Assembly (NCBI GenBank): GCA_038226425.1
Contig: JBBRQL010000002.1
Coordinates: 1 to 46,946 of the forward strand
DNA length: 46,946 nucleotides
Source: Verrucomicrobiota bacterium
Lineage (GTDB): Bacteria; Verrucomicrobiota; Verrucomicrobiia; Limisphaerales; UBA9464
Reading direction: 5' to 3'
Below, piece by piece: positions 1 to 13,151 of this stretch. How positions within the stretch are numbered: the stretch's first letter is position 1; every line of letters starts with the position of its first letter. The notes beneath the pieces are model-generated. The model did no database searches and was not told the DNA's origin. It was given only the letters and a program-made list of their open reading frames with translations. The translations under genes were made by a program, and so were the position numbers.

Positions 1-160
1 CGGTGAACGTGACGGCATTTGTCAGCTTTGCCGCAGGTACGGGTCCACTGACGGCGTCGGACGCGATGGTGGTATCGTAATCAGTGAGCGAAGCTCCCGC
101 CGGCGACATTGTCAGCGCTAACGCGAGACCGGCGTAAATCGCGGGGATGAAGAACTTCAT
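1..160 (-). CDS. partial secreted protein of unknown function (N-terminus only; gene runs off the left edge)
   Basis: ATG at 160 (minus) follows an AT-rich leader. Translation is MKFFIPAIYAGLALALTMSPAGA/SLTDYDTTIASD..., a classic signal peptide. The frame stays open to position 1. An in-frame upstream ATG at 343 is possible but less likely. Confidence 0.4.
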   Translation of the reverse strand, partial: MKFFIPAIYAGLALALTMSPAGASLTDYDTTIASDAVSGPVPAAKLTNAVTFT

Positions 161-612
161 AAATAATTCGCTTTTTACAAAGGGTGATAAGCCAACGGGA
201 ATCTTTATGCTGTAGAGAATCTCGCCGGTAACGACAGCCATGCATCCCACGATGAGGTCCTTGGTTCTATGCACAGCACTATCGGTAAACGGTAGGACCG
301 CGCCCGTCACGCCTTTGAACGGTCGGCGCCAAGGTCGGCTCATGGAAACCCTGTCTCGGCATATTGGCGGCTCCCTATCGACCGGAAGTTGGAGGTTAGA
401 TGGACGCGCTGCACGGCAAAACGGTGAGATAACGGATTGGGCGATGCCGGATGGCGCAGCTGAAAAATAGCACCTTGGCCACGATAAAGCACAGGCATTG
501 CGAAAACCTAACGCCGAGCGCCGGTTTAAGGTGGAAGGGTGAGCGTGTGAAGCCTGGGCAGAGAGATGTTTGGCCCATTTGGCGGCAACGATGTCCCGGA
601 CCTGACGATTGG

Positions 613-1005
613 TTATGTTCGGCTGGCGTGGGTGAGGACGTCGCGAAGGTAGGCGTAGGCATCGATGCCGCGGCGTCGACAGGATTCGATAAGTGTAGAT
701 AGGATGGCGCCGCGCTAGCCGGCGCCGGCTTCTCCCACGAAGAGCCAGTTCTTCCCGATGGTGGTGGGACCGATGGCGTTCTCGACCAGGTTGTTGTCGA
801 TCTCGACCCGGCCGTCGTCCAGGTACACGGTCATGCCTTGCCACTGGCCCAGGGCATAGGAGATGGCTTGGCCGAGCAGGCTCTTGGGAAGGATCCGGGG
901 CTGGCCCCGGGCCAAAGCTCGGAGGAAGCGTTCCGCCACCATCCGGCTCTTGCCGGCCCGCACCGCGGCCATTAACCGAGGTTTTCGGATGGAGAGGGAA
1001 CCGCG
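613..1005 (-). pseudogene. IS66-family transposase, C-terminal remnant (5'-truncated, in-frame TAG at 715-717)
   Basis: Translation ...LGQAISYALGQWQGMTVYLDDGRVEIDNNLVENAIGPTTIGKNWLFVGEAGAG*RGAILSTLIESCRRRGIDAYAYLRDVLTH matches the conserved IS66 Tnp C-terminal motifs (YLDDGRxEIDNN, GRKNWLF, Y.Y/AYLRDVL). Only about 130 of the roughly 500 expected residues are present. It is interrupted by an in-frame stop. No terminal inverted repeat was recognised. Confidence 0.75.
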
Positions 1006-1096
1006 CTAAGTCTTCCGCAATGACGAATCGTCACTGAAGTGCGGTTTGGCCGTGACAAGCAGGCGGCACATCGGCAAAACCCCAATAGCACACCCC

Positions 1097-3013
1097 ATGG
1101 ATTCGCAAGATCCAAACGCTTTGGCCAAGCCCTCCTTCTTCCGGGCCTTCCTGCCGTTCTGGGTCACCGCGTCCCTCAGCCTCGCGATCTTCTGCACCGA
1201 GTACCATCGGCGGAACGCTCCCCTGACCGTGCTTTCGATGCAGGTCACGGTGGATGGGGCGGAACCAGAGGAAGGCTATTCGCTGACGCTCAACGGCCGG
1301 TCCGCTGATCCGAGTCGTCCCGTGGGTTTGGGACCCAAGACCATCGTCGTGTCGACCCCTTACACGGAGCCGGTGAGCCTGAAGCAATTCGTCTGGTACG
1401 GTCCCAATCTGCTCGGCCCGATCGAGTTGAAGCGTTCTCAGGTCAAAGTCGCCTTGGATGTCCAGCCTCGGCCGGAGCTGGTCGAGCTTCGAGGTCCTTC
1501 CGGGAGTTTCACCAACGCAACGGGCCAGTTCGGGCCTTTGCCGGCCGGCCGGTACGATGCGACCTTCCGCTATGGCGAACTGACGGATGTCCAGAGGGTC
1601 CGGGTCGTCCGCGACCTGCCCGAACCGCTCAAGATCATCTCCGGGTTCGGAAGCCTCGAACTGAGCTTCGAGCCCGCCGACGCCGTCTTCAAGTTGGCCA
1701 CGCGGTCCAGCGGCCGCACCTGGGAAGGGACCACTCCCGGTGGGATTCCGCGGCTCCCCAAAGGTGGATACATATTGACGGTCGCTCGTGGCGAATATCG
1801 CCGATCGCTCGACGTGACCGTCCAGCCGAACGAGACGAACCGTATGCACGTGAAGTTCGTCTATGGAATCCTGGAAGCGACCAGCGAACCCACCGGGGCG
1901 ACCGTGGTGCTCGGAGGGAATGTCTTGGGCCGCACACCACTGGTCGTGTCGAACGTTATCCCGGCCCGGTATCGTCTCGAGATCACGAAGCCGGGATTCG
2001 ATGCCGGGACCTCCGAGGTGGAGGTCGAAGAGGGCGGAAGCCGAAAAGTCGCGACCCGCTTGGTGAACACGCGCTATCGGGAGGCGTTGGCGGCGGCAAA
2101 GGCGGCGACCGGGAACGGTCGGCAACGTGAGGCTTTGAGGTATCTGACCACGGCACTGGAAGAACAGGCTCAGGACGTTGCCGTCATGGTGCTCTTGCCC
2201 GGGGTCCGGCGCGCGGCGCGACTGGAGGAATCCGAAGACCTCGCACACCGAGGGCTTTTCGCTGAAGCCATCGCGAGCCTGGACCAAGCGGACAAATCGG
2301 AAACGCAGGATCCGGAGGCGACGGCGCTCCGGACCAAGATTGCTCAGCTCAAAGCGCAAGCAGACCAGCAGACCGCCACAACGAAGGCCCGGGAAGCTCT
2401 CGACGACGCGAAGCGCGCGGCCTCGGCCCGGGACATCAACCGCGCGTTGACCCGGTTGGCGGACGCAAAACGGCTGGTCCCGGACTTGGCGGGCATCGCC
2501 GAGACTGAGCAAGAGATACTGCGGACCAAAGCCGACCTCGATGCCGAGACCGCCCGGCGGCAACGGGCGGCACAGATCACCACCCGGTTGCAGGAACTGG
2601 AGACCGCTTTTGCCCGGGTCCAGACCAAGGACAAGTACCCCGATTCGTTCATCACGGGAGCGTGGCGGACGACCCGGCCGGTGCAGGACGTGTTGAGCAC
2701 GATCGAGGCCCTCGACCGCAGTGAGCGAGCTGGAAAGATATCCGAGCTGAGCTGGCTCAGCGACCACCACGCGACGATCAAGGCGGGCGCACTCGTCCCG
2801 CTTGTGGACATCGGGACCTACGTACGGATCGCGACTGCGACGATCGAAGATGGCCGGACCGAGATCCGGGCGAAGGTCTTCACGTACCAATTCGGCGATC
2901 AAGGCCCGGTGCCCGATTCCAATCCGGAACATCAGCGTCTACGCTTGGAAGATCTGCGCTCCAAATTCGATCGAGCCTTCTCCGGCGACCTCAAGCCCGC
3001 CAACACACCATGA
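1097..3013 (+). CDS. membrane-anchored PEGA-repeat / coiled-coil protein, function unknown (module gene A)
   Basis: Long ORF; the track starts it at TTG 1046, and I prefer ATG 1097. It has an N-terminal TM helix (FFRAFLPFWVTASLSLAIFC) and several beta-rich repeats. One repeat is a clear PEGA-like unit (GILEATSEPTGATVVLGGNVLGRTPLVVSNVIPARYRLEITKPGFD). A long Ala/Arg/Glu-rich helical region follows. The stop overlaps the next start (ATGA at 3010-3013). Confidence 0.75.
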   Translation: MDSQDPNALAKPSFFRAFLPFWVTASLSLAIFCTEYHRRNAPLTVLSMQVTVDGAEPEEGYSLTLNGRSADPSRPVGLGPKTIVVSTPYTEPVSLKQFVWYGPNLLGPIELKRSQVKVALDVQPRPELVELRGPSGSFTNATGQFGPLPAGRYDATFRYGELTDVQRVRVVRDLPEPLKIISGFGSLELSFEPADAVFKLATRSSGRTWEGTTPGGIPRLPKGGYILTVARGEYRRSLDVTVQPNETNRMHVKFVYGILEATSEPTGATVVLGGNVLGRTPLVVSNVIPARYRLEITKPGFDAGTSEVEVEEGGSRKVATRLVNTRYREALAAAKAATGNGRQREALRYLTTALEEQAQDVAVMVLLPGVRRAARLEESEDLAHRGLFAEAIASLDQADKSETQDPEATALRTKIAQLKAQADQQTATTKAREALDDAKRAASARDINRALTRLADAKRLVPDLAGIAETEQEILRTKADLDAETARRQRAAQITTRLQELETAFARVQTKDKYPDSFITGAWRTTRPVQDVLSTIEALDRSERAGKISELSWLSDHHATIKAGALVPLVDIGTYVRIATATIEDGRTEIRAKVFTYQFGDQGPVPDSNPEHQRLRLEDLRSKFDRAFSGDLKPANTP

Positions 3014-3786
3014 TCCCGGACAACTATGTCGACCGGCCGAACCTGGTCGCCCTATTTTCGTCGAATCCCGGCACTTCCGCAGGCGAGGCGGTCAAGACGC
3101 TGGCCTGGCTGAAGTTCCTTTGGACCGGCCCGAATCCCAACATCGCCATCGATCACAGCTCCCTTTACTTCCACACGAAGCTTTCCGCCCTGACCATCTA
3201 TGAATCCATGGTCACGGAAGTGGACCGGCACAAGGTTCCCGGCGTCCAAGTCGGCCGACAGATCCTGCATGAGAGCGGGCCGTTCTCGCCGTATCGGGCC
3301 TACCTGAGCATCCGCCGGGAATTCGACGAATTCCTCGTCTGCGCCGCCCCGGTGGGCGAGGCCTATATCCTGACCGTGCGGAAGATCGACTACTTCCCGC
3401 ATATCAAATGGTTTCACTACATCCCCTTCTTCCTGCTCTCCGGCGGAGCCTTCCTCGGCGGACTGGCCTGGGACGGTTGGGTCGGGGCGCTGGTCGTGGT
3501 GGCGCTGCCGGCGTCCTTGGTGTGGTCCCTCTTTCGGTATGCCGCTCATTCCACGATGAACTGGTTTTCCAAGCACCTGCCCTACATCCCGTTCATCGGA
3601 CACCTCTACATGCGCTGGTTTCTGCCCGACACTTACTATCGGCAGGATGTCCATGGCGCATTCCTGACCATCGTCGACAAATGCATCCACGCGGTGATCG
3701 ACGATCTCAATCCGGAGAACATGGCCCGGCCTTCCACCGTGCCCATTGAAGGTCCGGTCCAAAGTGATCTGCACACCAGGGCCTGA
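3010..3786 (+). CDS. small membrane protein, function unknown (module gene B)
   Basis: 258-aa ORF. It has a soluble N-terminal part of about 135 aa and central hydrophobic helices (FHYIPFFLLSGGAFLGGLAWDGWVGALVVVALPASLVWSLF). It is coupled on both sides: ATGA overlap upstream and TGATG overlap at 3784-3788 downstream. Confidence 0.7.
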   Translation: MIPDNYVDRPNLVALFSSNPGTSAGEAVKTLAWLKFLWTGPNPNIAIDHSSLYFHTKLSALTIYESMVTEVDRHKVPGVQVGRQILHESGPFSPYRAYLSIRREFDEFLVCAAPVGEAYILTVRKIDYFPHIKWFHYIPFFLLSGGAFLGGLAWDGWVGALVVVALPASLVWSLFRYAAHSTMNWFSKHLPYIPFIGHLYMRWFLPDTYYRQDVHGAFLTIVDKCIHAVIDDLNPENMARPSTVPIEGPVQSDLHTRA

Positions 3787-6700
3787 TGTCGATCAGCCAT
3801 CAGGTCGCGCGGGCGCTGGCGGAGCAGTTCTACTGCTGGGAACTTCGCGGACGCGGCTGGGTGGTCTGGCCGAGCCCGGTCCAGCTTGAGCCGCCATTCC
3901 GGCCGTTTGAAGGCCACTTTCTGCCACGGCGACTCACGGCGGACGACGGCCAGATTGAAAGCACCGGCAGCCGTTTTGCGAAGGGCTTTGGCCGGCTGCT
4001 GGGCATCTCGACCCAGCCGATAGCTGAACTGTCGCCAGAAGACATCGAGGAACCGCACGCGAACGAAGCTTCTGGACCCGACGAACTGGTCGAACTCCAG
4101 ATCGCGCTGCCACCGGACTACCAACCGCAGGCAAACGTCTTCGAGCAGTTCCTGTTCAGCATCGGCTACGCACGCGGGCCGGTTGCCTTTGAAGTGATCG
4201 GAACACCCGAGGAACTCGTGGTTCAGATCACCGTGCAACCGGATGACGCCGGGGCGGTGAGGCGGCAGCTCAAAGCCTTCTTCCCGGAAGCCATCATCGT
4301 CACCGGCGAGCAGCACCTTCGAGGAGCCCTGGTTGAGGAATCCGATGGCGACGTCCAAGTCATGGACTTCGGTCTGGAGCGGGAGTTCATGGTCCCGATC
4401 AACAGTCTCAAAGCGCTGGCCACAGATCCCTTGGTGGCGATCTGCGGCGCCTTGGACCAACTGGGGCCGGGGGAGGTGGGAGTTTTCCAGGTCCTGCTGG
4501 AACCGGCGCGACATCCGTGGGCCGCTTCGATGGTGCGAGCCGTATCGCTCGGCGACGGGCAGCCGTTCTTCTCGAACGATGCGGAACTCCTGGCCCAGAC
4601 CCGGGCAAAGGTGTCCCGCCCGCTGTACTCGACCGTCGTGCGGATGGCGGCTCGGACGGCCAGCGACCACCGGACCCTTGAACTGATCCGGGCGCTGGCC
4701 GGAGCGCTGCGTCCCTTGGGCAACCACCAAGGCAACCGGCTCGTGCCGCTCAACGAGGACGGGTACGAGGACGGCGACCACATCGCGGCGTTGGTGCGAC
4801 GAAAGACCCAACGGTCCGGGATGCTTCTGAACAGCGACGAACTGGTCGCGCTCGCTCATCTTCCCACCGCCGCCGTCCGGGCCAAGTCGCTACGAAGAGT
4901 CCTCAGCAAGACGAAAGCTGCCCCCGACGCGTTGACCGGAGACGTGGAGGGCGTGCTGCTGGGCCGCAACGGACACGAGGGCATCTCGAACGAAGTCCGC
5001 CTGCCGGACCAGACCCGGCTCAACCACTGCCACATCCTGGGCGGCACAGGCAGCGGCAAATCCACGCTACTGGGCCTGATGGCTTGGCAGGACATCTTGG
5101 CAGGTCGCGGGGTGGCGGTCATCGACCCTCACGGGGACCTGATCGACCTGCTGATCCCGCACATCCCGCCGGAGCGGATGCAGGATGTGATCCTGTTCGA
5201 TCCGACCGACGAGGAGTTCGCCATCGCCTTCAATCCGCTGGCCGCGGCCTCGGACCGGGAAAAGGAACTGCTGGCGACGGACTTCATCGCGGTGATGAAG
5301 CAGCACACGGCGAGTTGGGGAGACCAGATGTCCTCGCTGCTCGGCAACGCTGTGCTCGCGTTCCTCTGTTCGTCGAAGGGCGGCACGTTGCCGGAACTGC
5401 GGCGGTTCTTGGCGGACACCAAGTTCCGGTCCGAATTCCTTCGATCGGTGACCAATTCGGAGGTCGTCTATTTCTGGGAGAACGAGGCGCACCGCGCCAA
5501 CAAGAACTCCATCGGCTCGATCCTGACCCGGCTCGACGGGCTCCTGCGCTACGAATCCTTGCTCCATATCCTCGGGCAGCGGGCCAACCGGCTGGACTTC
5601 GCCGACATGATGGACACCGGGAAGATCTTCCTGGCCCGCCTCTCGAAGGGGCTGATCGGCGCCGAGAACGCCTACCTGCTGGGAAGCCTGCTGGTCTCGC
5701 GGTTCTACCAGACGACCATCGCCCGGCAGGCCCGTTCCCGTGAGCAGCGCCGGCCGTTTTTCCTGCTCATGGACGAGGCGGGCGATCTGCTCACCTCCAC
5801 GATCAGCGAGATCCTCACAGGCACCCGCAAGGACGGGCTGGGATTGACGCTCGCCCATCAGAACCTCTCCCAGCTCGGCGACGTCCACAGTTCGGTGATG
5901 GGCAATTGCGGTACGAAGGTCTGCTTCCAGGTCGGCGGGGATGATGCCCGGAAGATGGCGGAAGAGTTCGCTGGCTTCACCGCGACCGACCTGATGGGCC
6001 AGCCGCCCCTCCATGCGGTGGCCCGGGTCGGCTCCCGCAACCACGCTTTCAACCTGGTGACGCAGTTCGTTCCCGAAGCCGATCGACCATTGGACGAGGC
6101 CTACGCGGAGGTGCTCGGCGAGACCCGCAAACGGTACTGCACACCCCGCGCCACCATCCGCGCCGCTTTGGCCGAACTGCGCCGATCGATGCCCCGCGAC
6201 CCCGATGCGGATCCGTTCGCCCAGCTCGCGGCCAAACAAAAACTGGAACGCGAGCGGCGGGACCGCGAAGGGGACGCCCAAGGAGAACCGGCAACACCGA
6301 CGGCCCCGCGCAACAACCCGGGAAGTCCGAAAGTTGGACGTCCCGAGTCGAAGGCCCCGGCAACGGCGCCGACGATGCCGGAGGAGGCCGACACATCGGC
6401 AGAAGCTCGTCCGACGACTGCCAGCGGCAAAGCGGAGAGCATCAAGAACGCGATCATCCAAGCGGCCGGCGGTTGGGGCTATTCGTACCAGACGGAACAA
6501 GAGGTCGACGGAGGAAAGGGGAGGGTCGACATCATGCTCACCCTGGGCTCCTTGGTGATCGCCTGCGAGATCTCGGCGACCACTTCGGCCGAGCATGAGT
6601 TCGAGCGGAGCATCCGGAAATGTCTGCGAGCCGGATTCGCCCGGATCTTCCTCGTCTGCGACCACAACGCGCGGAGAGGCCAGATCCGCGAGATGGTCGA

Positions 6701-6950
6701 CGCCGGCTGCTCGCCGGAAGAGAAGCGCCGCGTGGACTGCATGACCACACGCGAGCTGATCGCGCACCTCGGCGTCTTGGCCGAACGGCAACGGGCGGAA
6801 TCGACCAAGGCGGAAAAGTCTTCCGGCAAGACCGTGCTCCAGGAGGCGGCAGGGGTGACGGTCGACGATCGGACGAAGGCCGTGGACGACGCGTGGTCCA
6901 AGATCTCCAAGAACATGAATCGCGACCGGAAGCCGACCGACCGCGATTGA
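3786..6950 (+). CDS. orphan TraD/VirD4(T4CP)-like FtsK-HerA superfamily P-loop ATPase with unknown N-terminal domain and C-terminal PD-(D/E)xK-like domain (module gene C)
   Basis: 1054-aa ORF. Walker A is HCHILGGTGSGKSTLLG (about 5040-5066), followed by VAVIDPHGDL. Walker B is RRPFFLLMDEAGDLL (about 5755-5790). GLGLTLAHQNLSQL and GTKVCFQVGGDDA are typical of coupling-protein/TrwB-type ATPases. The N-terminal 400 aa were not recognised. A Pro/Ala/Glu-rich linker is followed by GRVDIMLTLGSLVIACEISATT...RKCL...IFLVCD. Confidence 0.8.
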   Translation: MSISHQVARALAEQFYCWELRGRGWVVWPSPVQLEPPFRPFEGHFLPRRLTADDGQIESTGSRFAKGFGRLLGISTQPIAELSPEDIEEPHANEASGPDELVELQIALPPDYQPQANVFEQFLFSIGYARGPVAFEVIGTPEELVVQITVQPDDAGAVRRQLKAFFPEAIIVTGEQHLRGALVEESDGDVQVMDFGLEREFMVPINSLKALATDPLVAICGALDQLGPGEVGVFQVLLEPARHPWAASMVRAVSLGDGQPFFSNDAELLAQTRAKVSRPLYSTVVRMAARTASDHRTLELIRALAGALRPLGNHQGNRLVPLNEDGYEDGDHIAALVRRKTQRSGMLLNSDELVALAHLPTAAVRAKSLRRVLSKTKAAPDALTGDVEGVLLGRNGHEGISNEVRLPDQTRLNHCHILGGTGSGKSTLLGLMAWQDILAGRGVAVIDPHGDLIDLLIPHIPPERMQDVILFDPTDEEFAIAFNPLAAASDREKELLATDFIAVMKQHTASWGDQMSSLLGNAVLAFLCSSKGGTLPELRRFLADTKFRSEFLRSVTNSEVVYFWENEAHRANKNSIGSILTRLDGLLRYESLLHILGQRANRLDFADMMDTGKIFLARLSKGLIGAENAYLLGSLLVSRFYQTTIARQARSREQRRPFFLLMDEAGDLLTSTISEILTGTRKDGLGLTLAHQNLSQLGDVHSSVMGNCGTKVCFQVGGDDARKMAEEFAGFTATDLMGQPPLHAVARVGSRNHAFNLVTQFVPEADRPLDEAYAEVLGETRKRYCTPRATIRAALAELRRSMPRDPDADPFAQLAAKQKLERERRDREGDAQGEPATPTAPRNNPGSPKVGRPESKAPATAPTMPEEADTSAEARPTTASGKAESIKNAIIQAAGGWGYSYQTEQEVDGGKGRVDIMLTLGSLVIACEISATTSAEHEFERSIRKCLRAGFARIFLVCDHNARRGQIREMVDAGCSPEEKRRVDCMTTRELIAHLGVLAERQRAESTKAEKSSGKTVLQEAAGVTVDDRTKAVDDAWSKISKNMNRDRKPTDRD

Positions 6951-7106
6951 GCGCGAAGCGGGAAAGCAATCGATCACGCAAGCCGGCGCGCGGCCTCCGG
7001 TTCCGGGCAGACATCAACCGCATTCGCAGGGCACGAATCACGCTCGGGTTTGTCCGCCTTTGATCCGGAGATAGTTCGTTTCCTTCTCGAACCAGTGGCG
7101 CGCGGA

Positions 7107-7233
7107 ACTTCCCACTGGCCGAAAGCAGCATCGGTCCAGATTTGCCGTGGAAAACGCTCAGGAATGGGCGGAAAATCAAACTCCGACTTCCCAAAAAACT
7201 TCCCACTCACGTGCTCGAACTTTTCTTCCCACT
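7107..7233. repeat. four direct copies of (A)CTTCCCA(CT) in the non-coding stretch next to the tRNA 3' end
   Basis: ACTTCCCACT at 7107-7116 and 7198-7207. ACTTCCCA at 7186-7193. CTTCCCACT at 7225-7233. Related inverted copies (GGGGAAGTG, GCGGAAGT) lie at 7246-7268. The local G+C is visibly lower. Confidence 0.6.
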
Positions 7234-7268
7234 GAATAACCTGTTGGGGAAGTGATACTTGCGGAAGT

Positions 7269-7342
7269 TGGAGCGGGTGAAGGGAATCGAACCCTCGTCT
7301 CAGGCTTGGGAAGCCCACGTTCTACCATTGAACCACACCCGC
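7269..7342 (-). tRNA. tRNA-Gly (anticodon CCC), CCA encoded
   Basis: The reverse complement reads GCGGGTG TG GTTC AATGGTA GAAC G TGGGC TTCCCAA GCCTG AGAC GAGGG TTCGATT CCCTT CACCCGC T CCA. That gives a 7-bp acceptor stem, D and T arms, a GTTCGATTC T-loop and the anticodon loop TT-CCC-AA. Length is 74 nt. Confidence 0.93.
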
Positions 7343-7627
7343 GGAGCGGAAGAAGTGGTAGCCGAGGGCTTCGACATCCGCAACGGCGGAGTTCGATCTG
7401 GGTGCAGGCCGCAGTGGAGGACACCATTATCCAACGTCCCGGCGCTGGTCGGGGGCGGTATCCCAAAGACTCGGTGTCGCCCGCGGAACAGACAGCCCGG
7501 ACGAATGGGCACGATCACGACGCTGCCTTCCAGACCGGATTTCCCCGCTGTCCGGCAGCGCCGCTGAGCTGATGGCTTGCACCGACGCGCCGGCCGCATC
7601 GGCGGACCTGCGCTCACCGGAGGCGCT

Positions 7628-8845
7628 TCATTTCTTCTTCTTCGGAGCGGGCTTGCCGACGTCTTCTGCTTTCTTGGGCGGGAGAGCGCCGAGCACTTTC
7701 TCGAGCTGCTCCTCGGAGATGGACCGCGGCTTGAGCGTGGCCTCGGCGCGCTCTTTGGCGGTGAGCGCGGCGAGCTGGCCTGCCGCAGGCACGATGTGCG
7801 GCGTGAGGAAGATCATCAGCTCGGTCTTGTTGTCCTGCTTCTGCTTCCTCTTGAAGAGATTTCCCAGCCAAGGGATGTCGCCGAGCAGGGGCACTTTGCT
7901 CTCGGAGATGGTCTGCTGCGTCTGCATCAGGCCGCCGATGATGACGGTCTGGCCGTCCGGCACGATCACCACGGTGTCGGCGACGCGCGAGTTGATGACC
8001 GGCGCGAGGGCGTCCTTGGAGATGGGCACCCATTGGGTCCGGTCGGCGAGCTGCGAGGTCTCGGGGGAGACGATCATCTCGACCATGCCGTCCTTCGAGA
8101 TGAACGGCGTGACGCGGAGGATGATGCCGACGCTCTGGTAGGTGACGGTGTTGATCTGCCCGTTGACCGCGTCGAACCGCGTGTTGCTGACGAGCGGGAC
8201 CTGCTGGCCGAGGCTGATGGTCGCCGGCTGGTTGTTGCGGGTGAGGATGGACGGTCGGGACAGGATCTCCGCGTTGCCGGCCTGCGCGATGGCCCGGAGC
8301 GTGACCTCGAAATCGGAGCCGAGCAGCTGGTACAGGCCGGCGCCCGGAGGGGTCGGGCCGATGCCGCTGATGTTCTGGCCGATCGAGTTCAGCACCGCGT
8401 TGCTGGAGGATCCGCCGATGCCGGATTGGCCGAAGGAGTTGGCGAACTTGCCGACGCCGACGTCGCCGATGTTCTGGGAGCGTCCGCCTTCGACACCGAA
8501 ATCGAGGCCGTCGTTGTGGGTGACTTCGAGGAACACCACCTTGATCAGGACCTGCGGACGCGGTTTGTCGAGGCTCTGGATGACCTCCTTGATCTGGAGG
8601 TTGGTCTCCTCGTCGGTCACGACGACGACCTTGCGGGTCTCGGGGTCGACGGAGATGACCGCCTCGCCGACCTGGGTGTTGCTAGGATACTCGCGGGCCG
8701 TGGTGCTTCCGCCGGTGCGGCGTCCCGCGGCTCCGTTGTTCTGGCCTTGGGCCTGGGCGAAGGCCGGGACGGCGAGCAGGCCGCCGAGCAGCAAGACCGC
8801 GAGCGACCGAGGGAGGATGACCGGCGGGAAAATCGTGGTGTGCAT
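7628..8845 (-). CDS. gspD: secretin, short form (signal peptide + one N3-like domain + C-terminal secretin beta-barrel domain)
   Basis: Own signal peptide (LAVLLLGGLLAVPAFAQAQ). N3-like segment: AVISVDPETRKVVVVTDEETNLQIKEVIQSLDKPRPQVLIKVVFLEV. Canonical secretin core: AEILSRPSILTRNNQPATISLGQQVP...VIIGGLMQ...SKVPLLGDIPWLGNLFK...TELMIFLTPHIV. A GGAG lies 8 nt upstream of the ATG. Confidence 0.9.
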   Translation of the reverse strand: MHTTIFPPVILPRSLAVLLLGGLLAVPAFAQAQGQNNGAAGRRTGGSTTAREYPSNTQVGEAVISVDPETRKVVVVTDEETNLQIKEVIQSLDKPRPQVLIKVVFLEVTHNDGLDFGVEGGRSQNIGDVGVGKFANSFGQSGIGGSSSNAVLNSIGQNISGIGPTPPGAGLYQLLGSDFEVTLRAIAQAGNAEILSRPSILTRNNQPATISLGQQVPLVSNTRFDAVNGQINTVTYQSVGIILRVTPFISKDGMVEMIVSPETSQLADRTQWVPISKDALAPVINSRVADTVVIVPDGQTVIIGGLMQTQQTISESKVPLLGDIPWLGNLFKRKQKQDNKTELMIFLTPHIVPAAGQLAALTAKERAEATLKPRSISEEQLEKVLGALPPKKAEDVGKPAPKKKK

Positions 8846-8856
8846 GGAAGGATCTC

Positions 8857-10473
8857 CTAGTTCTGACGTCCGGTCTGGCCTGCGCCGCCGCCTTGGCCGA
8901 AGCCGGTGGTCGTGCCGCGGCTCTGGTTCTGGTTCTGCGTCTGGCGGGTGGTCAGCGCGCTGCCTTGGGTCTGCGAGGTCCGGCTCTGCGTGCCGCGGTT
9001 CTGCGAGTTCTTGCTCTCGAACAACGACCTCAGGACGGTCTCGACCTCGGTGGGGTCCGCGTTGTCGAGCTCATAGACGTAGACCTTCTGTTTTTTGGCC
9101 GGGTCGGAATCGAGCTGCTCGACCATCTGCGAGATCTGGCCCATCAGGTCGCGCGCCGCCTTGACGATGACGGATCCGGTCCGCGGATCGGGCACGGCGA
9201 GCACCTTGCCCTTTTTCTTCGCGAGCTCGCTGTCGCCTGAAGCGGTCGTCGCGCCGCCGCCGCCCCGGCCGCCGAATCCACCGCCGAAGCGCACCTGGTT
9301 GCCGCCGGTGTTGTTCGCGTTCTGTGTCTCGTCCGGGAACAGGTTGGTGAGCAGGTCCGCCATCTCGACGGGATCGGCGTACTTGAGGCGGAAGGCGCGG
9401 ACCTCGGTGATGTCCTCGACGTTGCGGTCGACCTTCTTCACGAGCTCCTCGATGGCCGGGAGGACATCCTCGGGCGCGTTGACGACCAGCGAGTTGCTGT
9501 GCTCGTCGGCGACCGCAGTGACCCGCGATGCCGCCGCCCGTCCGCTGCCCGAGGTGTTGCCGCCGGCCGCACCGCCGCCCGCGCCCCTGCCGCCACCCGC
9601 ACCCCCGCCGCCGCCACCGAATGGTCCGGCACCTCCGAACGGTCCGCCGCCGAACCCGCCGGCGGCGCCTGTGTTGCGGTTGTTGCCGCCGGCGTTGGCC
9701 TGCGAGGGGAACAGCTCCTTCACCAGCGTCGCGAGTTCTTTGGCATCCGAGTATCTGAGCGGGAAGACCCGGATCGTCGTGGCCCCGGACATCGAGGTGT
9801 CGAGGGCGCGGATGATCTCGGTCATGCGCTTGATGCTGACCTGGGTGTCGGTGAGCACGAGCGCGTTGCCGGCCTCGTTCGCGGTCATCTCCGAACCGGT
9901 CGGCAGCAACGGCTGGAGGTTCTGCACCAGCTGCGTGGCCGTGATGAAGTGGATGGGGATGATCTGCGTGACCAGCTCCTCGTTCTTCGGGATGGCTTCG
10001 GGATCGTTGCCGCTCTTGACCGGGATGTCGCGGCGTTTGGCGTTCTCCTTGGTGACGATCGTGAGCGTGCGGCCGTTGCGGAGCGCGGTGAGCCCGTTCT
10101 TGTTCAGCGCGGAATCGAGGACCGCCAACGCCTCCTCCTGGGTCACGGGCTGGTTGCTCCAGACGTCGATCTTCCCGCGGACCTCGGTCTCGGAGACGAT
10201 GATGAAGCCGGCGGCCTCGCTGAGATAGTTGAGGACCATGTCCAGCGGCGCGTTGCGGAAATTGAGGCGCAATGGCTTGTCGGGAGTGGCCGGCCCGGGC
10301 TCCGGCGCTGGCTTCGCCTCAGGTGCTTTCGCCTTGGGTGTCGCGGCCGGAGCGTCGGGCTTGGCAGAAGCCTCGGGCTTCGCCGGCGCCGCGTCCTGCG
10401 CAGGCGCGGACACCGTGATCAAGAGGCCCAGCATGAGGCTGGACGCGGCGGGGACAAACTTATGGGTTCTCAT
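8857..10473 (-). CDS. GspD-like periplasmic N-domain protein (N0-N1-N2-N3 type repeats) lacking a secretin barrel
   Basis: Signal peptide (LMLGLLITVSAPAQDA). N0-like segment: LNFRNAPLDMVLNYLSEAAGFIIVSE...TLTIV. Repeated N1-N3-like units: IRVFPLRYSDAKELATLVKELF; VTAVADEHSNSLVVNAPEDVLPAIEELV; VRAFRLKYADPVEMADLL; VYVYELDNADPTEVETVL. Gly-rich linkers separate them. It ends in a Q/N/S/T/G-rich tail at TAG 8857-8859 with no barrel domain. Confidence 0.85.
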   Translation of the reverse strand: MRTHKFVPAASSLMLGLLITVSAPAQDAAPAKPEASAKPDAPAATPKAKAPEAKPAPEPGPATPDKPLRLNFRNAPLDMVLNYLSEAAGFIIVSETEVRGKIDVWSNQPVTQEEALAVLDSALNKNGLTALRNGRTLTIVTKENAKRRDIPVKSGNDPEAIPKNEELVTQIIPIHFITATQLVQNLQPLLPTGSEMTANEAGNALVLTDTQVSIKRMTEIIRALDTSMSGATTIRVFPLRYSDAKELATLVKELFPSQANAGGNNRNTGAAGGFGGGPFGGAGPFGGGGGGAGGGRGAGGGAAGGNTSGSGRAAASRVTAVADEHSNSLVVNAPEDVLPAIEELVKKVDRNVEDITEVRAFRLKYADPVEMADLLTNLFPDETQNANNTGGNQVRFGGGFGGRGGGGATTASGDSELAKKKGKVLAVPDPRTGSVIVKAARDLMGQISQMVEQLDSDPAKKQKVYVYELDNADPTEVETVLRSLFESKNSQNRGTQSRTSQTQGSALTTRQTQNQNQSRGTTTGFGQGGGAGQTGRQN

Positions 10474-11712: not shown

Positions 11713-13151
11713 GGGAGGGACGGGCCCGCGGCCCATCGGAAGTTGAAGTTGAACTGGACCGGCGCCTTGCCGCGGGACTGCTCGAGCTGGAGTTCGGCGA
11801 TGTCGGGCGTGGCGCGGAGCTTCTCCAGCGTCCGGTTCATCGCGACGCTGTCGGTCGCCGTCGCCGAACAGCTCACCTGGCCGGATCCGCGGATCTCGAT
11901 CGTCTTGGCCGTCACGTCGCCGTTCTCCGGGAAGGCCTCGGTCATCCGCCGCAGGATCCCCAGGCTGCGGACCGAGTCGTCGAACCACGGCCGGAAGCGC
12001 TTGATCTGCTGCTGCAAGGTCTCCAGCTCGCGGACCTTCGGCTCCATCCCGGACCACTCGGAGCGGAGCATCGTCAACCGCACCTGTTGCACGATGAACG
12101 CGAAGGCCACGGCGGCGACGACGGCACCGCCGACCTTCGCCGCCAGCATCAGTTTGCCGGAGGAATGCTTGCCCGCGAACTGCTGCCAGGCCGAGACCTG
12201 CGGCGGCAAGAACTCCAGTCCGGTCGCCGTGCCCGCCAGGTATCGCGTCGCCACGGCCATGGCGGCGCCCACCGGGGCCGAGCCGGGGACCTTGAGCCCC
12301 AGTTCGCCCGGAGCGAAGGCGACCACCCGCTCGACCTGCAGGCCGAGGGCCTCTGCGCGCGGAGCCATTTCCGCGGCGAGCCGGTCCGCGGCGGCGCCGG
12401 TGCCGAAGATACGAAGGCGGCGCAGGTCGTCGCGCAAGTTCGGCGGCAACTGGCCCGTGGTCACCCGCAGCTCGCGGCCCACGCGATCGGCCGCGACCTG
12501 GGCCTCGGCTCCTTCGCCTTGGACCGCCGGCTCCAGGATCCTCAGCGCCGCGATGCCCCCGCCGGCGACCGCCAGGAGCGCTATGTCCCGGGCGCCGACG
12601 AAGAGCGCCACCACGCCGCTGCTTCCCGCGTTCTTGCCGGACGGTTGCGATGCCGCGACGCCGATGGTGAACGACACCGGCGTGAGCCGGGCCGCGCGCA
12701 GCATCGACCCGATCTTCGCGATCTGCTCGAGCGGCACCGCCAGCTGCGTCGCATGCACCGGGCCGCCCGCGACCTGCGACCGCGAGACCGCGATGCCCAA
12801 GGCCTCTGGCGGGTAGGGGAAGCCGTTCTCGGCCTCCAGCTGGAGCAGGTCGCGGGCATCCTCGTCGGAAAGCTCCGGCAGCACCGACTGCAGCGAGAGC
12901 ACCCAGCTCGCCGGCAGCGCGACGACGCACCGGCGCTCGCGGATCTCCGCGGCGTCGAGCATCGCTTTGAGCTCGGCCCCGAGGACCGCCGGGTCCGCCT
13001 TGGCCGGATCGGCGCTGAAGGTGCCCGCGGCCGTCTGCGCGATCCCGGCGGCATCGCCGTCGCGTCGGACGACGACCGCTTCGATCCGCGTGCCGTCGAA
13101 GGCCAGGCCGAGCACGGCCTGCGGACGCTGTTTCTGGAACCAGTCCTTCAT
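11709..13151 (-). CDS. PilM-PilN fusion / GspL-like assembly protein (actin-like cytoplasmic domain + TM + periplasmic domain)
   Basis: ATG 13151 overlaps the gspK stop (ATGA). The N-terminal 330 aa or so look like the PilM/GspL actin-like fold (LGLAFDGTRIEAVVV..., VVALFVGARDIALLAV). A TM helix follows (LMLAAKVGGAVVAAVAFAFIV), then a PilN-like tail. Confidence 0.7.
   Translation of the reverse strand: MKDWFQKQRPQAVLGLAFDGTRIEAVVVRRDGDAAGIAQTAAGTFSADPAKADPAVLGAELKAMLDAAEIRERRCVVALPASWVLSLQSVLPELSDEDARDLLQLEAENGFPYPPEALGIAVSRSQVAGGPVHATQLAVPLEQIAKIGSMLRAARLTPVSFTIGVAASQPSGKNAGSSGVVALFVGARDIALLAVAGGGIAALRILEPAVQGEGAEAQVAADRVGRELRVTTGQLPPNLRDDLRRLRIFGTGAAADRLAAEMAPRAEALGLQVERVVAFAPGELGLKVPGSAPVGAAMAVATRYLAGTATGLEFLPPQVSAWQQFAGKHSSGKLMLAAKVGGAVVAAVAFAFIVQQVRLTMLRSEWSGMEPKVRELETLQQQIKRFRPWFDDSVRSLGILRRMTEAFPENGDVTAKTIEIRGSGQVSCSATATDSVAMNRTLEKLRATPDIAELQLEQSRGKAPVQFNFNFRWAAGPSLP

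What the first reader, a model, noticed from the sequence alone, without database searches (positions are those of the whole stretch)
1046..6950. Translationally coupled three-gene module: PEGA-repeat membrane protein + small TM protein + orphan TraD/VirD4-like ATPase-nuclease fusion (best candidate for an undescribed system)
Seen in the sequence:
- Three same-strand ORFs are fused by start/stop overlaps (ATGA at 3010-3013, TGATG at 3784-3788), so they are almost certainly co-translated as a unit.
- Gene C has clear coupling-protein/FtsK-HerA-type Walker A and B motifs. These are normally found next to relaxase, VirB4 and pilus genes, but no other conjugation or T4SS gene is present in the window.
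- Gene C is extended by an unrecognised 400-aa N-domain and a C-terminal nuclease-like module.
- Genes A and B are membrane proteins. A carries PEGA-type beta repeats plus a long helical stalk; B has 2-3 TM helices.

Context: the module lies between an IS66 remnant and the 3' end of a tRNA, a typical accessory or defence-island position.

Inference: this may be a membrane-tethered DNA translocase with a nuclease. It could act on incoming or outgoing DNA, for example in anti-plasmid or anti-phage defence or in non-canonical DNA export or uptake. I do not recognise this gene triad as any named defence or transfer system.
Basis: partly seen in the sequence, partly recalled or inferred. Interest (0 to 1): 0.8.

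Follow-up and report, generated by a model that had tools for sequence, protein, structure and literature searches.

The report
Membrane-anchored DNA pump-nuclease of mobile islands
The three genes are real and encode a membrane-tethered DNA-pumping ATPase fused to a nuclease; it belongs to a large, unstudied family that travels on integrating mobile DNA elements in many environmental bacteria, and here it sits alone, so it may be either a new way of moving DNA or a new way of destroying incoming DNA.

Summary
Three same-strand genes, A (1097-3013), B (3010-3786) and C (3786-6950), have overlapping stop/start codons. C has TrwB/VirD4-type Walker motifs, and the window contains no relaxase, recombinase or T4SS gene.

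The conserved unit is the B-C pair, not the triad. B sits directly upstream of C in 84 of 87 homologous loci from many phyla. A occurs in only 11.

C has three parts:
- a DUF8128 N-domain;
- a coupling-protein-like ATPase with no transmembrane anchor of its own;
- a C-terminal PD-(D/E)xK-fold domain with invariant acidic residues, found only in this family.

C is an orphan only in this window's clade. Elsewhere B-C lies beside a large serine recombinase (51 loci, often inserted at one site in comM) or a tyrosine integrase. In Verrucomicrobiota it lies inside compact elements with a MOBC relaxase, a short coupling ATPase, a primase, ArdC and RadC. About 60% of such elements lack B-C.

Nuclease-less relatives occupy the coupling-protein position on Bacillus conjugative plasmids and also occur in Bacillus/Geobacillus phages.

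No named defence system matches, and I found no literature on the module.

Best reading: a coupling-protein-derived, membrane-anchored translocase-nuclease carried by mobile elements. Estimated roles: exclusion/defence about 0.4, self-mobilisation about 0.3, element maintenance about 0.15.

The parts
560..972 (-). IS66-family transposase C-terminal remnant (frame-shifted and truncated where gene A begins). It marks the decayed left side of the island.
   Evidence: ORF 715-972. The continuation at 560-714 was read from the sequence. IS66 identity rests on my recognition of the motif (NNLVENAIGP...KNWLF...LIESCRRRGIDAYAYLRDVL) and was not scanned. A full IS66 transposase lies next to the module in L004.
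1097..3013 (+). Gene A: a single-pass PEGA-domain protein with a helical/TPR-like region (638 aa from ATG 1097; an alternative TTG start is at 1046).
   Evidence: Pfam PEGA 4.5e-14. Homologues in the same position in 11 loci. Start site inferred from homologue N-termini and the 638-aa database gene call.
1136..1204 (+). N-terminal hydrophobic anchor of A (FFRAFLPFWVTASLSLAIFCTEY). It is conserved across the A family.
   Evidence: (family N-termini).
1868..2071 (+). PEGA beta-sandwich domain of A (residues 275-342, counted from the TTG start).
3010..3786 (+). Gene B: a 258-aa membrane protein with no known family. It is the universal partner of C. Its ATG overlaps A's stop (ATGA).
   Evidence: No Pfam, NCBIfam, PADLOC or PHROG hit. 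32 close homologues. Present directly upstream of C in 84/87 loci, median offset -4.
3418..3540 (+). Hydrophobic hairpin of B (residues about 137-177), predicted to form two transmembrane helices.
   Evidence: Kyte-Doolittle scan and the sequence itself.
3786..6950 (+). Gene C: a 1054-aa coupling-protein-like ATPase with a C-terminal nuclease-fold domain. Its ATG overlaps B's stop (TGATG).
3786..4970 (+). N-terminal alpha/beta domain of C (DUF8128, PF26449). It is soluble and contains no TM helix.
   Evidence: Precomputed Pfam annotations. Model pLDDT is mostly above 90. The domain is shared with Bacillus plasmid and phage proteins.
4971..6185 (+). TrwB/VirD4-type P-loop ATPase domain with an all-alpha insertion. 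Walker A is at 5040-5063 and Walker B at 5763-5783.
   Evidence: Pfam PF10412 covers residues 404-732. Foldseek to TrwB gives TM 0.66-0.69. The motifs are invariant. Coordinates.
6186..6419 (+). Low-complexity, poorly conserved linker, predicted to be disordered.
   Evidence: pLDDT below 50 for residues 829-878. Only 34 of 120 homologues align here.
6420..6815 (+). C-terminal PD-(D/E)xK-fold domain (residues 879-1010). E904 and D915 are invariant, E928 is nearly invariant and K945 is conserved.
   Evidence: Model pLDDT 95. Foldseek top hits are R2 endonuclease, AF1548, Bax1, Can2, PspGI, EcoT38I and Hjc. Conservation. The domain is restricted to this family.
7107..7232 (+). Cluster of four (A)CTTCCCA(C) direct repeats between C and the tRNA. 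This may be a cis-acting end site of the island (att arm, iteron or oriT-like).
   Evidence: All three ACTTCCCA matches in the window fall here, against 0.74 expected by chance. The motif cluster is also present downstream of C in L011 and L005.
7269..7342 (-). tRNA-Gly(CCC). Its 3' end faces the module. The same tRNA follows the triad in L011.

Best explanation
**What it is.** B and C, plus the clade-specific gene A, form a membrane-anchored DNA translocase-endonuclease module carried by mobile elements.

**Shown.**
- C is a TrwB/VirD4-type P-loop pump. It has a soluble DUF8128 N-domain in place of the usual transmembrane anchor, and a family-specific C-terminal PD-(D/E)xK-fold domain with conserved acidic residues.
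- B is a small membrane protein encoded immediately upstream, with stop/start overlap, in almost every homologous locus.
- The pair rides at the recombinase end of integrative elements in many phyla.
- In this window it is a stand-alone copy at the tRNA-Gly edge of a decayed island.

**Inferred mechanism.** B tethers a ring of C to the inner membrane. C threads DNA that has a free end or a nick at the membrane, and its nuclease domain cuts that DNA. A is an envelope-exposed accessory protein, either a sensor or a scaffold.

**Inferred role (the reading I favour).** The module is an exclusion/defence device, derived from a conjugative coupling protein, that intercepts and cleaves incoming foreign DNA (conjugative or phage). 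It benefits the island and, in stand-alone copies, the host.
For: **Architecture.**

**The B-C pair is the unit.** B is next to C in 84/87 loci with a median 4-nt overlap.

**Carried by mobile elements.** Serine recombinase in 51 loci, tyrosine integrase in 16, and a truncated comM fragment beside the recombinase in 13; tblastn confirms the same residue 346-352 split in 14 loci.

**Behaves as accessory cargo.**
- Only 17 of 42 verrucomicrobial relaxase-primase-ArdC-RadC elements with enough downstream sequence carry B-C.
- In some elements without it, the region downstream of RadC holds a NACHT NTPase, Cas3/Csd1 or a kinase.

**Kept intact without any mobility gene.** In the window's own clade the triad is intact in at least six different contexts:
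- between housekeeping genes;
- beside LexA-ImuB-DnaE2;
- beside ISL3, a DruA-like gene and a Gabija-like OLD-TOPRIM + UvrD pair;
- with host genes immediately downstream;
- in this window.

**Precedent for this ATPase type in defence.** Structural similarity to the DndH/DptH C-domain and a PADLOC mad8 hit at 2e-15.

**The nuclease domain is specific and conserved.** It is confined to this ATPase family (2361 representative clusters) and keeps invariant acidic residues.

**Distribution.** Patchy and spread over many phyla, with island GC of 0.61-0.66 against 0.68-0.70 in the flanking genome.
Against: - No experimental data exist for any family member.
- No known defence family matches A or B, and C matches only at the ATPase core.
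- In several phyla C's stop overlaps or abuts the serine recombinase start. That fits a mobility backbone better than cargo.
- Outside Verrucomicrobiota the only recurrent neighbours are recombinases, so B-C plus recombinase could itself be the mobility core.
- A distant nuclease-less homologue sits in the coupling-protein slot next to a MOBC relaxase and a Tcp-type T4SS. One variant is followed directly by Replic_Relax.
- The canonical lysine of the (D/E)xK motif is not conserved at the expected position, so nuclease activity is unproven.
- I could not confirm that the NACHT and Cas genes lie inside the B-C-less elements.
Confidence: 0.4

Rival explanations
1. **Self-mobilisation module.** B plus C acts as a split coupling protein: B supplies the membrane domain and C the motor. 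C's fused PD-(D/E)xK domain acts as a MOBC-like relaxase/nickase. Together with the adjacent recombinase this would be a minimal integrative mobilisable element that pirates a helper mating pore. The window copy would be a relic that has lost its recombinase.
For: - C is TrwB-like in sequence and fold, including the all-alpha domain.
- The Bacillus plasmid homologue lies directly upstream of a Replic_Relax (MOBC) gene and a Tcp-type T4SS.
- The P0047 variant lacks the nuclease domain and is followed by an overlapping Replic_Relax gene, a gene-fusion/fission ('Rosetta stone') pattern.
- MOBC relaxases are themselves PD-(D/E)xK enzymes (PMC5357655, PMC11104534, PMC3424549).
- Recombinases are tightly and often overlappingly linked across phyla, with variable content upstream.
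- Conserved CTTCCCA repeats downstream of C could be an oriT- or att-like site.
- Integrative mobilisable elements with their own coupling protein are known (PMC5357655).
Against: - Verrucomicrobial elements already carry a separate short coupling ATPase plus MOBC relaxase, and about 60% of them lack B-C.
- Profile comparison of C's nuclease domain with the MOBC relaxases is negative (probability 2.5%). No Replic_Relax Pfam hit appears in any of 22 domain sequences.
- Intact stand-alone triads without recombinase or relaxase persist in several contexts.
- Homologues occur in tailed phages, which do not conjugate.
- No T4SS was seen near any nuclease-bearing homologue.
Confidence: 0.3
2. **Maintenance of the excised element.** After excision by the recombinase, the circular element is replicated, resolved or segregated with the help of a membrane-anchored FtsK-like pump-nuclease. 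This would be analogous to the conserved helicase operon next to ccr serine recombinases in staphylococcal SCC elements (analogy from my own knowledge, not tested here).
For: - C and the serine recombinase are linked in an operon-like arrangement.
- Phage relatives lie among early, partition, replication and recombination genes: ParA/RepA and a RepB-type primase in 0105phi7-2; RecB-like, Erf and a replication initiator in TP-84; a partition protein in D6E.
- The Bacillus plasmid homologue lies beside ParM and a long non-coding region.
Against: - It does not explain stand-alone triads that lack a recombinase.
- It does not explain the variable envelope partners A and A2.
- It does not explain why the module is optional in otherwise complete elements.
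Confidence: 0.15
3. **Minimal unconventional mating apparatus.** B would be VirB3-like, C VirB4-like and A2 VirB6-like. Together with the short coupling ATPase and the MOBC relaxase, this would make the 14-kb verrucomicrobial elements self-transmissible.
For: - The best PDB Foldseek hits are TrwK/VirB4, with about 900 aligned columns (E 6e-16).
- A small 2-TM protein translationally coupled upstream of a large ATPase with an N-domain is the VirB3-VirB4 arrangement (background knowledge).
- A2 has 4-5 TM helices plus a large domain.
- The compact element L098/L019 encodes little else.
Against: - The TM-score to VirB4 is only 0.32, against 0.66-0.69 to TrwB.
- There is no Pfam VirB4 N-domain hit.
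- In the Bacillus plasmid a separate canonical VirB4-like ATPase coexists with the C-like protein.
- Nothing in these elements could cross an outer membrane.
- A and A2 are unrelated to each other, and both are absent from most loci.
Confidence: 0.07
4. **Non-functional relic.** The window copy is simply a leftover of a decayed island.
For: - An IS66 remnant abuts A.
- The window has no recombinase or relaxase, and no second att repeat.
Against: - All three ORFs are full length relative to homologues, and the catalytic motifs are intact.
- The same stand-alone arrangement is kept in several unrelated contexts at 58-66% protein identity for C.
Confidence: 0.05

Closest known systems
Type IV coupling proteins (TrwB of R388, VirD4, TraD)
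   Same: - The same P-loop fold with an all-alpha insertion: Pfam PF10412 E 1e-11, and Foldseek TM 0.66-0.69 normalised to TrwB.
- Expected to form a hexameric DNA pump at the inner membrane.
- A distant relative of C occupies the coupling-protein slot next to a relaxase and a T4SS on a Bacillus plasmid.
   Different: - C has no N-terminal transmembrane domain. It has a 400-aa soluble DUF8128 domain instead, and a separate membrane partner, B.
- It carries a C-terminal PD-(D/E)xK domain.
- It scores far below the NCBIfam cut-offs for TraD/VirD4 families (41 bits against 366).
- No T4SS or relaxase lies in the window or near most homologues.
PHROG 5156 and the Bacillus/Geobacillus phage proteins (phage G gp156, phage JL 'MsbA-like', D6E ORF23, TP-84 gp48, 0105phi7-2 gp32); also the Bacillus plasmid 'DUF87 domain-containing protein'
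   Same: - They share the N-domain plus ATPase architecture: PHROG E 1.5e-61 over residues 269-800, and BFVD Foldseek E 1e-43 and 9e-39.
- Plasmid tblastn hits cover residues 124-783.
- In D6E an unannotated 2-TM ORF precedes the gene and a large serine recombinase follows it.
   Different: - These relatives are 750-910 aa and lack the nuclease-fold domain.
- Sequence identity is only 21-25%.
- No homologue of B was detected.
- Their function is also unknown (the PHROG category is 'unknown function').
DptH/DndH of the Dnd restriction system, and mad8 of MADS
   Same: Both are TraD/VirD4-like ATPase cores used in defence systems. The Foldseek match to the DndH C-domain has TM 0.68. The PADLOC mad8 hit is E 2e-15 over residues 413-720.
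   Different: - None of the partner genes (DptF/G, mad1-7, methyltransferase) is present.
- The N- and C-terminal domains differ.
- The similarity is confined to the ATPase core.
MOBC (Replic_Relax, PF13814) relaxases
   Same: They have the PD-(D/E)xK fold, lie next to C-like ATPases in a plasmid and in one island variant, and occur in the same verrucomicrobial elements.
   Different: There is no detectable sequence relationship to C's C-terminal domain. C's domain is only the 130-aa core, without the N-terminal DNA-binding part.
HerA-NurA, and the membrane-associated defence systems Zorya and Kiwa
   Same: The logic is the same: a ring translocase coupled to a nuclease (HerA-NurA; HerA is among the Foldseek hits), or a membrane complex that recruits DNA-targeting effectors (Zorya, Kiwa; comparison from my own knowledge).
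   Different: No homology to NurA, ZorA-D or KwaA/B was found (PADLOC). Here the nuclease is fused to the pump, and the pump is coupling-protein-like rather than HerA-like.

Membership tests
Type IV coupling protein (VirD4/TrwB/TraD) | FtsK/HerA-superfamily nucleotide-binding domain with Walker A and B motifs and a TrwB-like fold | tested here: met
   PF10412 E 1.1e-11, PF02534 E 1e-5. Foldseek to TrwB: E 1e-13, TM 0.66-0.69. The motifs are invariant.
Type IV coupling protein (VirD4/TrwB/TraD) | All-alpha domain inserted in the nucleotide-binding domain | tested here: met
   The model shows helices across residues 490-650, between Walker A and Walker B. The PF10412 match spans profile positions 7-326 of 387.
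Type IV coupling protein (VirD4/TrwB/TraD) | N-terminal transmembrane domain in the same polypeptide | tested here: not met
   There is no hydrophobic segment in C's first 900 residues, and the N-domain is modelled as a soluble alpha/beta domain. B may supply the anchor in trans, but this is an inference.
Type IV coupling protein (VirD4/TrwB/TraD) | Encoded with a relaxase and a mating-pore (T4SS) gene set | tested here: not met
   None is present in the window. A relaxase was found in 9 of 87 homologous loci, and no T4SS gene in any neighbourhood examined. The criterion is met only for a 24%-identical nuclease-less plasmid relative.
Type IV coupling protein (VirD4/TrwB/TraD) | Reaches the curated NCBIfam family cut-offs | tested here: not met
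   The best hit, TIGR03743, scores 41 bits against a cut-off of 366.
VirB4 ATPase | VirB4-type N-terminal domain (Pfam CagE_TrbE_VirB) plus C-terminal ATPase | tested here: inconclusive
   No Pfam hit to the VirB4 N-domain. The Foldseek best PDB hits are TrwK/VirB4 with about 900 aligned columns, but TM is only 0.26-0.32. The N-domain was not searched on its own.
PD-(D/E)xK nuclease superfamily | alpha-beta-beta-beta-alpha-beta core fold | tested here: met
   Domain model pLDDT 95, with secondary-structure order H-E-E-E-H-E. The top Foldseek hits are all PD-(D/E)xK enzymes (probability 0.96-1.0, E 2e-3 to 1e-1, TM 0.34-0.56 normalised to the query).
PD-(D/E)xK nuclease superfamily | Catalytic D...(D/E)xK signature | tested here: inconclusive
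   E904 and D915 are invariant and E928 is at least 90% conserved. The residue two positions after E928 varies (S/T/L/G/N/A), while K945 on the following helix is conserved. No sequence hit to any Pfam or PDB nuclease.
PD-(D/E)xK nuclease superfamily | Metal-dependent phosphodiester cleavage | not testable with these tools
   This needs biochemistry.
MOBC relaxase (Replic_Relax, PF13814) | Sequence membership of PF13814, or profile similarity to it | tested here: not met
   hhalign of the C-terminal-domain profile against the relaxase profile gives probability 2.5%. None of 22 domain sequences hit PF13814, even at E up to 10.
MADS defence system | mad8-like ATPase together with the other mad genes, including a methyltransferase | tested here: not met
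   There is a mad8 hit, E 2.3e-15, on the ATPase core only. A and B have no PADLOC hit to any system component, and no further mad gene lies in the module.
Integrative mobilisable element | Own integrase or recombinase, plus att sites | tested here: not met
   The window has no recombinase homologue and no repeat of the tRNA 3' end in 1-7400. The criterion is met in most homologous loci.

The most novel reading that the evidence does not exclude
B-C, with variable envelope partners such as A, may be a previously undescribed system spread by serine-recombinase islands across Verrucomicrobiota, Acidobacteriota, Bacteroidota, Planctomycetota, Gemmatimonadota and other phyla. It would be a coupling-protein-derived ring translocase, held at the inner membrane by a dedicated 2-TM partner and fused to its own nuclease. 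It would do one of two things:
(a) capture and destroy DNA entering the cell, making it a new defence/exclusion class; or
(b) act as an all-in-one relaxase plus coupling protein, which would define a new minimal type of mobilisable element.
Probability: 0.6. Interest if true: 0.8.

Novelty: new variant of a known kind. Interest (0 to 1): 0.62.

Why it matters
The family is large. The full-length search returned over 900 close proteins, and the nuclease domain alone matched 2361 clusters at 50% identity. It was found in more than 570 species-level genomes. It is confined to poorly studied environmental phyla and carries only generic labels ('type IV secretion system DNA-binding domain-containing protein', DUF8128, PHROG of unknown function).

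If it is a defence or exclusion device, it adds a new effector logic: a conjugation motor turned into a membrane-sited DNA shredder. It would also help explain how small integrative islands compete with one another.

If it is a relaxase-coupling-protein fusion, it defines the mobility backbone of a widespread class of genomic islands in phyla where conjugation is barely charted. It would also explain how these islands, including those that split comM, spread.

Either way, it gives a testable function to related unknown-function genes in Bacillus plasmids and phages.

Tried and rejected
- **Known defence system.** PADLOC gave only an ATPase-core hit to mad8 and weak HerA hits. A and B gave nothing meaningful. 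Rejected as a member of any listed system.
- **C's nuclease domain is a diverged MOBC relaxase.** hhalign probability was 2.5%, and there was no PF13814 hit in 22 sequences. No support, though fold-level kinship cannot be excluded.
- **Sequence-level identification of the C-terminal domain.** A profile search against PDB and Pfam scans at E up to 10 found nothing. Only structure prediction plus Foldseek was informative.
- **The C-terminal domain also occurs in other architectures.** An exhaustive HMMER search found it essentially only in C-family proteins or their fragments. A few of these have a different N-terminal region.
- **A and the alternative partner A2 are homologous.** hhalign was negative.
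- **The elements are prophages.** Only 3 full-length hits appeared among 2.9 million IMG/VR contigs, so the nuclease-bearing form is not typically viral. Distant nuclease-less relatives do occur in Bacillus/Geobacillus phages.
- **Delimiting whole islands from the two comM halves.** Only one half was ever inside the 10-kb flank, so island sizes of more than 13 kb are lower bounds. One compact element of about 14 kb was pieced together from two overlapping loci.
- **A second att copy of the tRNA-Gly 3' end in the window.** None was found in 1-7400.
- **Promoter/terminator scan and Rfam.** Nothing beyond chance and the tRNA.
- **Literature.** Searches for DUF8128, for coupling-protein-nuclease defence, and for verrucomicrobial mobilisable elements found no description of this module.

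Full report
**1. The observation**

Three + strand ORFs occupy 1046/1097-3013 (A), 3010-3786 (B) and 3786-6950 (C). The junctions read ATGA at 3010-3013 and TGATG at 3784-3788, so each start codon overlaps the preceding stop. Long antisense ORFs also exist in this GC-rich DNA (633 and 636 aa), but homology supports the + strand reading:
- A hits Pfam PEGA (E 4.5e-14).
- C hits TrwB_AAD_bind (1e-11), DUF87 and T4SS-DNA_transf.
- A, B and C homologues lie in the same order in other genomes.

A most likely starts at ATG 1097. Homologues begin just before the conserved hydrophobic segment FxRAFLPFW, and the database's own gene call is 638 aa.

tRNA-Gly(CCC) lies at 7269-7342 on the minus strand with its 3' end facing C. 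An IS66-type transposase C-terminal fragment lies at about 560-972 on the minus strand and is cut off where A begins (the family was assigned by eye). The island has 0.61-0.66 GC, against 0.68-0.70 further along the window. No homologue of a relaxase, primase, ArdC, RadC, serine recombinase or tyrosine integrase occurs anywhere in the window.

**2. Anatomy of C**

An AlphaFold model built on 58 homologues has mean pLDDT 87. It shows four parts:
- Residues 1-395 form a soluble alpha/beta domain, which the precomputed Pfam annotations call DUF8128.
- Residues 396-800 form a P-loop domain with a helical insertion between Walker A (419-426) and Walker B (660-666).
- Residues 801-878 are disordered and poorly conserved.
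- Residues 879-1010 form a compact alpha-beta-beta-beta-alpha-beta domain.

Against the PDB, the whole model matches TrwK/VirB4 (E 6e-16, about 900 columns, but TM only 0.26-0.32) and TrwB (E 1e-13, TM 0.66-0.69 normalised to TrwB). HerA, Cag-beta and the DndH C-domain follow.

I modelled the C-terminal domain separately (pLDDT 95). Its best PDB matches are all PD-(D/E)xK enzymes: the R2 retrotransposon endonuclease, AF1548, Bax1, Can2, PspGI, EcoT38I, Nt.BspD6I and Hjc. The E-values are modest (2e-3 to 1e-1) but the probabilities are 0.96-1.0. E904 and D915 are invariant and E928 is nearly so. The canonical lysine two residues after E928 is not conserved, while K945 is. The fold is therefore supported, and catalysis is plausible but unproven.

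Sequence methods alone do not recognise this domain. An exhaustive profile search of 1.84 billion representatives finds it in 2361 clusters. The best 146 are all C-family proteins or fragments of them. The fusion is thus a hallmark of one family.

C has no transmembrane segment before residue 900.

**3. B and A**

B matches no family in Pfam, NCBIfam, PADLOC or PHROGs. It has a hydrophobic hairpin at about residues 137-177.

A has one N-terminal anchor, a PEGA domain and an Ala/Leu/Arg/Glu-rich helical region. That region gives TPR-type Pfam hits in homologues. A evolves much faster than C: 34-47% identity against 58-66% in the same relatives. I could not determine A's membrane topology.

**4. 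What is conserved elsewhere**

C's family is large. The word-indexed search returned 935 hits, and hit number 120 still scored 780 bits. A pattern scan of one genome per species found more than 571 loci. These span Verrucomicrobiota, Acidobacteriota, Bacteroidota, Planctomycetota, Gemmatimonadota, Desulfobacterota, Binatia, Eisenbacteria and some Proteobacteria.

I clustered all ORFs of 87 loci that carry C. The results:

| Neighbour of C | Loci (of 87) | Note |
|---|---|---|
| B | 84 | directly upstream, same strand, median offset -4 |
| A | 11 | divergently oriented in three of them |
| A2 | 7 | unrelated 780-820-aa protein with 4-5 TM helices in the same place |

The conserved unit is therefore B-C, not the triad.

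The next most frequent neighbours are recombinases:
- A large serine recombinase (Resolvase + Recombinase) occurs in 51 loci. It is usually 0-340 bp downstream of C on the same strand, and in several loci its start overlaps or abuts C's stop (offsets 0 to +4).
- A tyrosine integrase occurs in 16 loci.

In 13 loci the recombinase is flanked by a truncated comM gene. tblastn confirms the split at the same point (residue about 346-352...AAMNP | CPCG...) in 14 loci from different phyla. That is direct evidence for site-specific integrative elements.

A small Xre-like HTH gene lies between C and the recombinase in at least ten loci.

**5. Verrucomicrobial elements**

Here B-C lies in compact, co-directional elements with this order: short TrwB-like ATPase (C', about 430 aa, no N-domain), Replic_Relax, DnaG-type primase, small ORFs, ArdC, RadC, (A or A2), B, C, serine recombinase. 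Replic_Relax is the MOBC, restriction-endonuclease-like relaxase family (PMC5357655, PMC11104534, PMC3424549).

One such element could be bounded at about 14 kb (L098 plus L019).

I then centred a survey on the relaxase. Of 42 loci with at least 9 kb of downstream sequence, 17 carry B-C. In several of the others the region downstream of RadC holds a NACHT NTPase, Cas3/Csd1, a protein kinase or ordinary host genes. B-C is therefore frequent but dispensable in these elements.

Outside Verrucomicrobiota, I scanned 140 ORFs from the 7 kb upstream of B-C in 41 loci. They gave 124 different Pfam families. Only integrases and resolvases recurred, and no T4SS family appeared among the most frequent families listed.

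**6. The window's own clade**

Relatives with C at 58-66% identity carry the co-directional A-B-C triad without mobility genes:
- one lies between housekeeping-type genes;
- one lies beside LexA-ImuB-DnaE2 and a PLD-type gene;
- one lies beside ISL3, a DruA-like gene, a Gabija-like OLD-TOPRIM + UvrD pair and DUF932;
- two copies in one MAG lie next to RadC and two small island genes, amid IS elements;
- others have host genes immediately downstream of C.

L011 has the same tRNA-Gly(CCC) downstream of C as the window, and a conserved cluster of CTTCCCA repeats. The repeats recur downstream of C in L005, which has no tRNA there. In the window, all three ACTTCCCA matches fall in 7107-7205, against 0.74 expected by chance.

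The window copy is therefore a full-length, motif-intact module at the edge of an island whose other side has been eroded by an IS66 element.

**7. Distant relatives**

*Plasmids.* A tblastn search of plasmids finds 24%-identical proteins covering residues 124-783. On a 24.7-kb Bacillus subtilis plasmid this 'DUF87 protein' (886 aa, no nuclease domain, no TM) lies directly upstream of a Replic_Relax gene and a Tcp-type T4SS: TcpC, TcpE, an AAA_10 VirB4-like ATPase and a large membrane protein. That is the coupling-protein position. No B-like gene precedes it.

*A two-ATPase variant.* One island variant (P0047, 1227 aa) replaces the nuclease domain with a second ATPase domain. A Replic_Relax gene follows directly (overlapping C's end in L009, 8 bp downstream in L010), in an element with a tyrosine integrase and an excisionase-type HTH.

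*Phages.* PHROG 5156 (unknown function) matches residues 269-800 at E 1.5e-61. The BFVD structure library gives much stronger matches than the PDB: Bacillus phage G gp156 at 1e-43, and phage JL at 9e-39 with TM 0.51. The contexts are:
- In temperate phage D6E the gene lies after the lysis cassette. An unannotated 146-aa ORF with a 2-TM hairpin precedes it, and a large serine recombinase follows.
- In 0105phi7-2 and TP-84 it lies among early, partition, replication and recombination genes.

The nuclease-bearing form is rare in viral contigs: 3 full-length hits in IMG/VR.

**8. Interpretation**

*Shown.* The module is a coupling-protein-type pump without its own anchor, plus an obligatory small membrane partner, plus a family-specific PD-(D/E)xK-fold domain. 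It is carried by integrative mobile elements. It is optional in one well-defined element type. It also persists alone.

*Inferred.* B tethers a C hexamer to the inner membrane, C threads DNA, and the C-terminal domain cuts it.

*Biological role: three readings survive.*

- **Exclusion/defence (about 0.4, favoured).** It best explains three things: the optional, cargo-like distribution; the intact stand-alone copies in variable or defence-type neighbourhoods; and the fused nuclease. There is precedent for TraD-like ATPases in defence, namely the DndH structural match and the mad8 hit.
- **Self-mobilisation (about 0.3).** Here B-C is a split coupling protein and the nuclease is a MOBC-like nickase. 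This best explains the tight and often overlapping linkage to recombinases, the plasmid context and the fusion/fission pattern with Replic_Relax. It is weakened by three points: the separate C'-relaxase pair in the same elements, the negative profile comparison, and the phage and stand-alone occurrences.
- **Maintenance of the excised element (about 0.15).** This fits the phage contexts and the operon with the recombinase. It does not explain the envelope partners or the stand-alone copies.

A VirB3/VirB4-like minimal mating apparatus (about 0.07) and a dead relic (about 0.05) are less likely.

**9. Novelty**

PADLOC has no system that matches. Pfam offers only a DUF for the N-domain, and PHROGs lists the phage relatives as unknown function. 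Four literature searches found no description.

The parts are known kinds: a coupling-protein ATPase, a PD-(D/E)xK fold and a PEGA domain. The combination, its obligatory 2-TM partner and its distribution are undescribed. I therefore rate it a new variant of a known kind. It could turn out to be a new class of defence system or of mobilisable element.

**10. Limits**

- Neighbourhoods were limited to 10 kb on each side, so island boundaries are mostly unknown.
- ORF calling in the loci was a simple greedy longest-ORF method.
- Most genomes are MAGs, some with implausible taxonomic labels.
- I did not model B, A or the isolated N-domain.
- I could not confirm that the defence-type genes seen in B-C-less elements lie inside those elements.

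Noticed in passing
window 7107-7232 (also L011 about 12630-12720, and L005 about 13180-13250): A cluster of (A)CTTCCCA(C) direct repeats, with a near-inverted copy, lies between the end of gene C and the tRNA. All three exact ACTTCCCA matches in the 47-kb window fall here. The motif cluster recurs downstream of C in two relatives, one of which has no tRNA. It may be an att arm, an iteron or an oriT-like site.
   Followed up: partly
window 560-972 (minus strand): An IS66-family transposase C-terminal fragment with an internal frame break, cut off exactly where gene A's upstream region begins. This suggests an IS-mediated deletion of the rest of the island. A gene for a signal-peptide protein starts at about 165 on the minus strand and runs off the left end of the window.
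   Followed up: partly
L018, L021, L034, L036, L038, L039, L045, L051, L054, L059, L061, L069, L084: comM (the Mg-chelatase-like competence gene) is split at the same codon position (...AAMNP | CPCG...) next to a large serine recombinase, in genomes from several phyla. This is a cross-phylum integration hotspot for these islands. Integration would inactivate comM.
   Followed up: partly
L006 13100-13336, L012, L014, L015, L019, L023, L027, L045, L085, L007/L008 (just downstream of C, minus strand): A conserved 78-84-aa Xre-like helix-turn-helix gene lies between C and the serine recombinase. It is convergent with C. It may be the element's regulator or a directionality factor. It is absent from the window.
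   Followed up: no
L009 10001-13684 and L010 (protein P0047; also P0064): A variant of C with two tandem ATPase domains and no nuclease domain. A Replic_Relax (MOBC relaxase) gene follows directly (overlapping in L009), in an element with a tyrosine integrase and an HTH_17 excisionase-like gene. A separate short C'-type ATPase lies 7 kb further on.
   Followed up: partly
L179 (phage D6E) 5453-5893: An unannotated 146-aa ORF with a two-helix hydrophobic hairpin lies immediately upstream of, and overlaps, the phage's C-like gene. A large serine recombinase lies just beyond. This mirrors the B-C-recombinase order of the islands. Phage G similarly has two adjacent C-like genes (gp155 and gp156).
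   Followed up: partly
L003 and L004 (same MAG, STL-VER9): Two copies of the A-B-C triad occur in one genome. Each is preceded by the same inverted small island genes c15 and c30 (with RadC clearly present in L003), and each is surrounded by IS elements: ISL3 and rve-type near L003, IS66 and rve-type near L004.
   Followed up: no
window 7628-8845 and 8857-10473 (minus strand), continuing to about 14 kb: Directly beyond the tRNA lie two consecutive secretin-like ORFs. Each has its own signal peptide, and one has a long Gly-rich tract. Pilus-assembly-like genes follow. This looks like a host type II/type IV-pilus-type cluster. The assignment is from sequence motifs only and was not scanned.
   Followed up: no
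record titles of L002, L013, L016, L106, L143, L156 and others: Several MAGs that carry verrucomicrobial-type elements are labelled Akkermansia muciniphila, Bifidobacteriaceae, Klebsiella, Acetobacteraceae or CPR phyla. These are probably mis-binned or mislabelled, so the phylum counts are approximate.
   Followed up: no
L173 17095-19848 (minus strand): A 917-aa A-like (PEGA) protein lies next to a tyrosine integrase in a relaxase-primase-ArdC-RadC element with no B-C. A-type envelope proteins can therefore occur on these elements independently of the pump.
   Followed up: no
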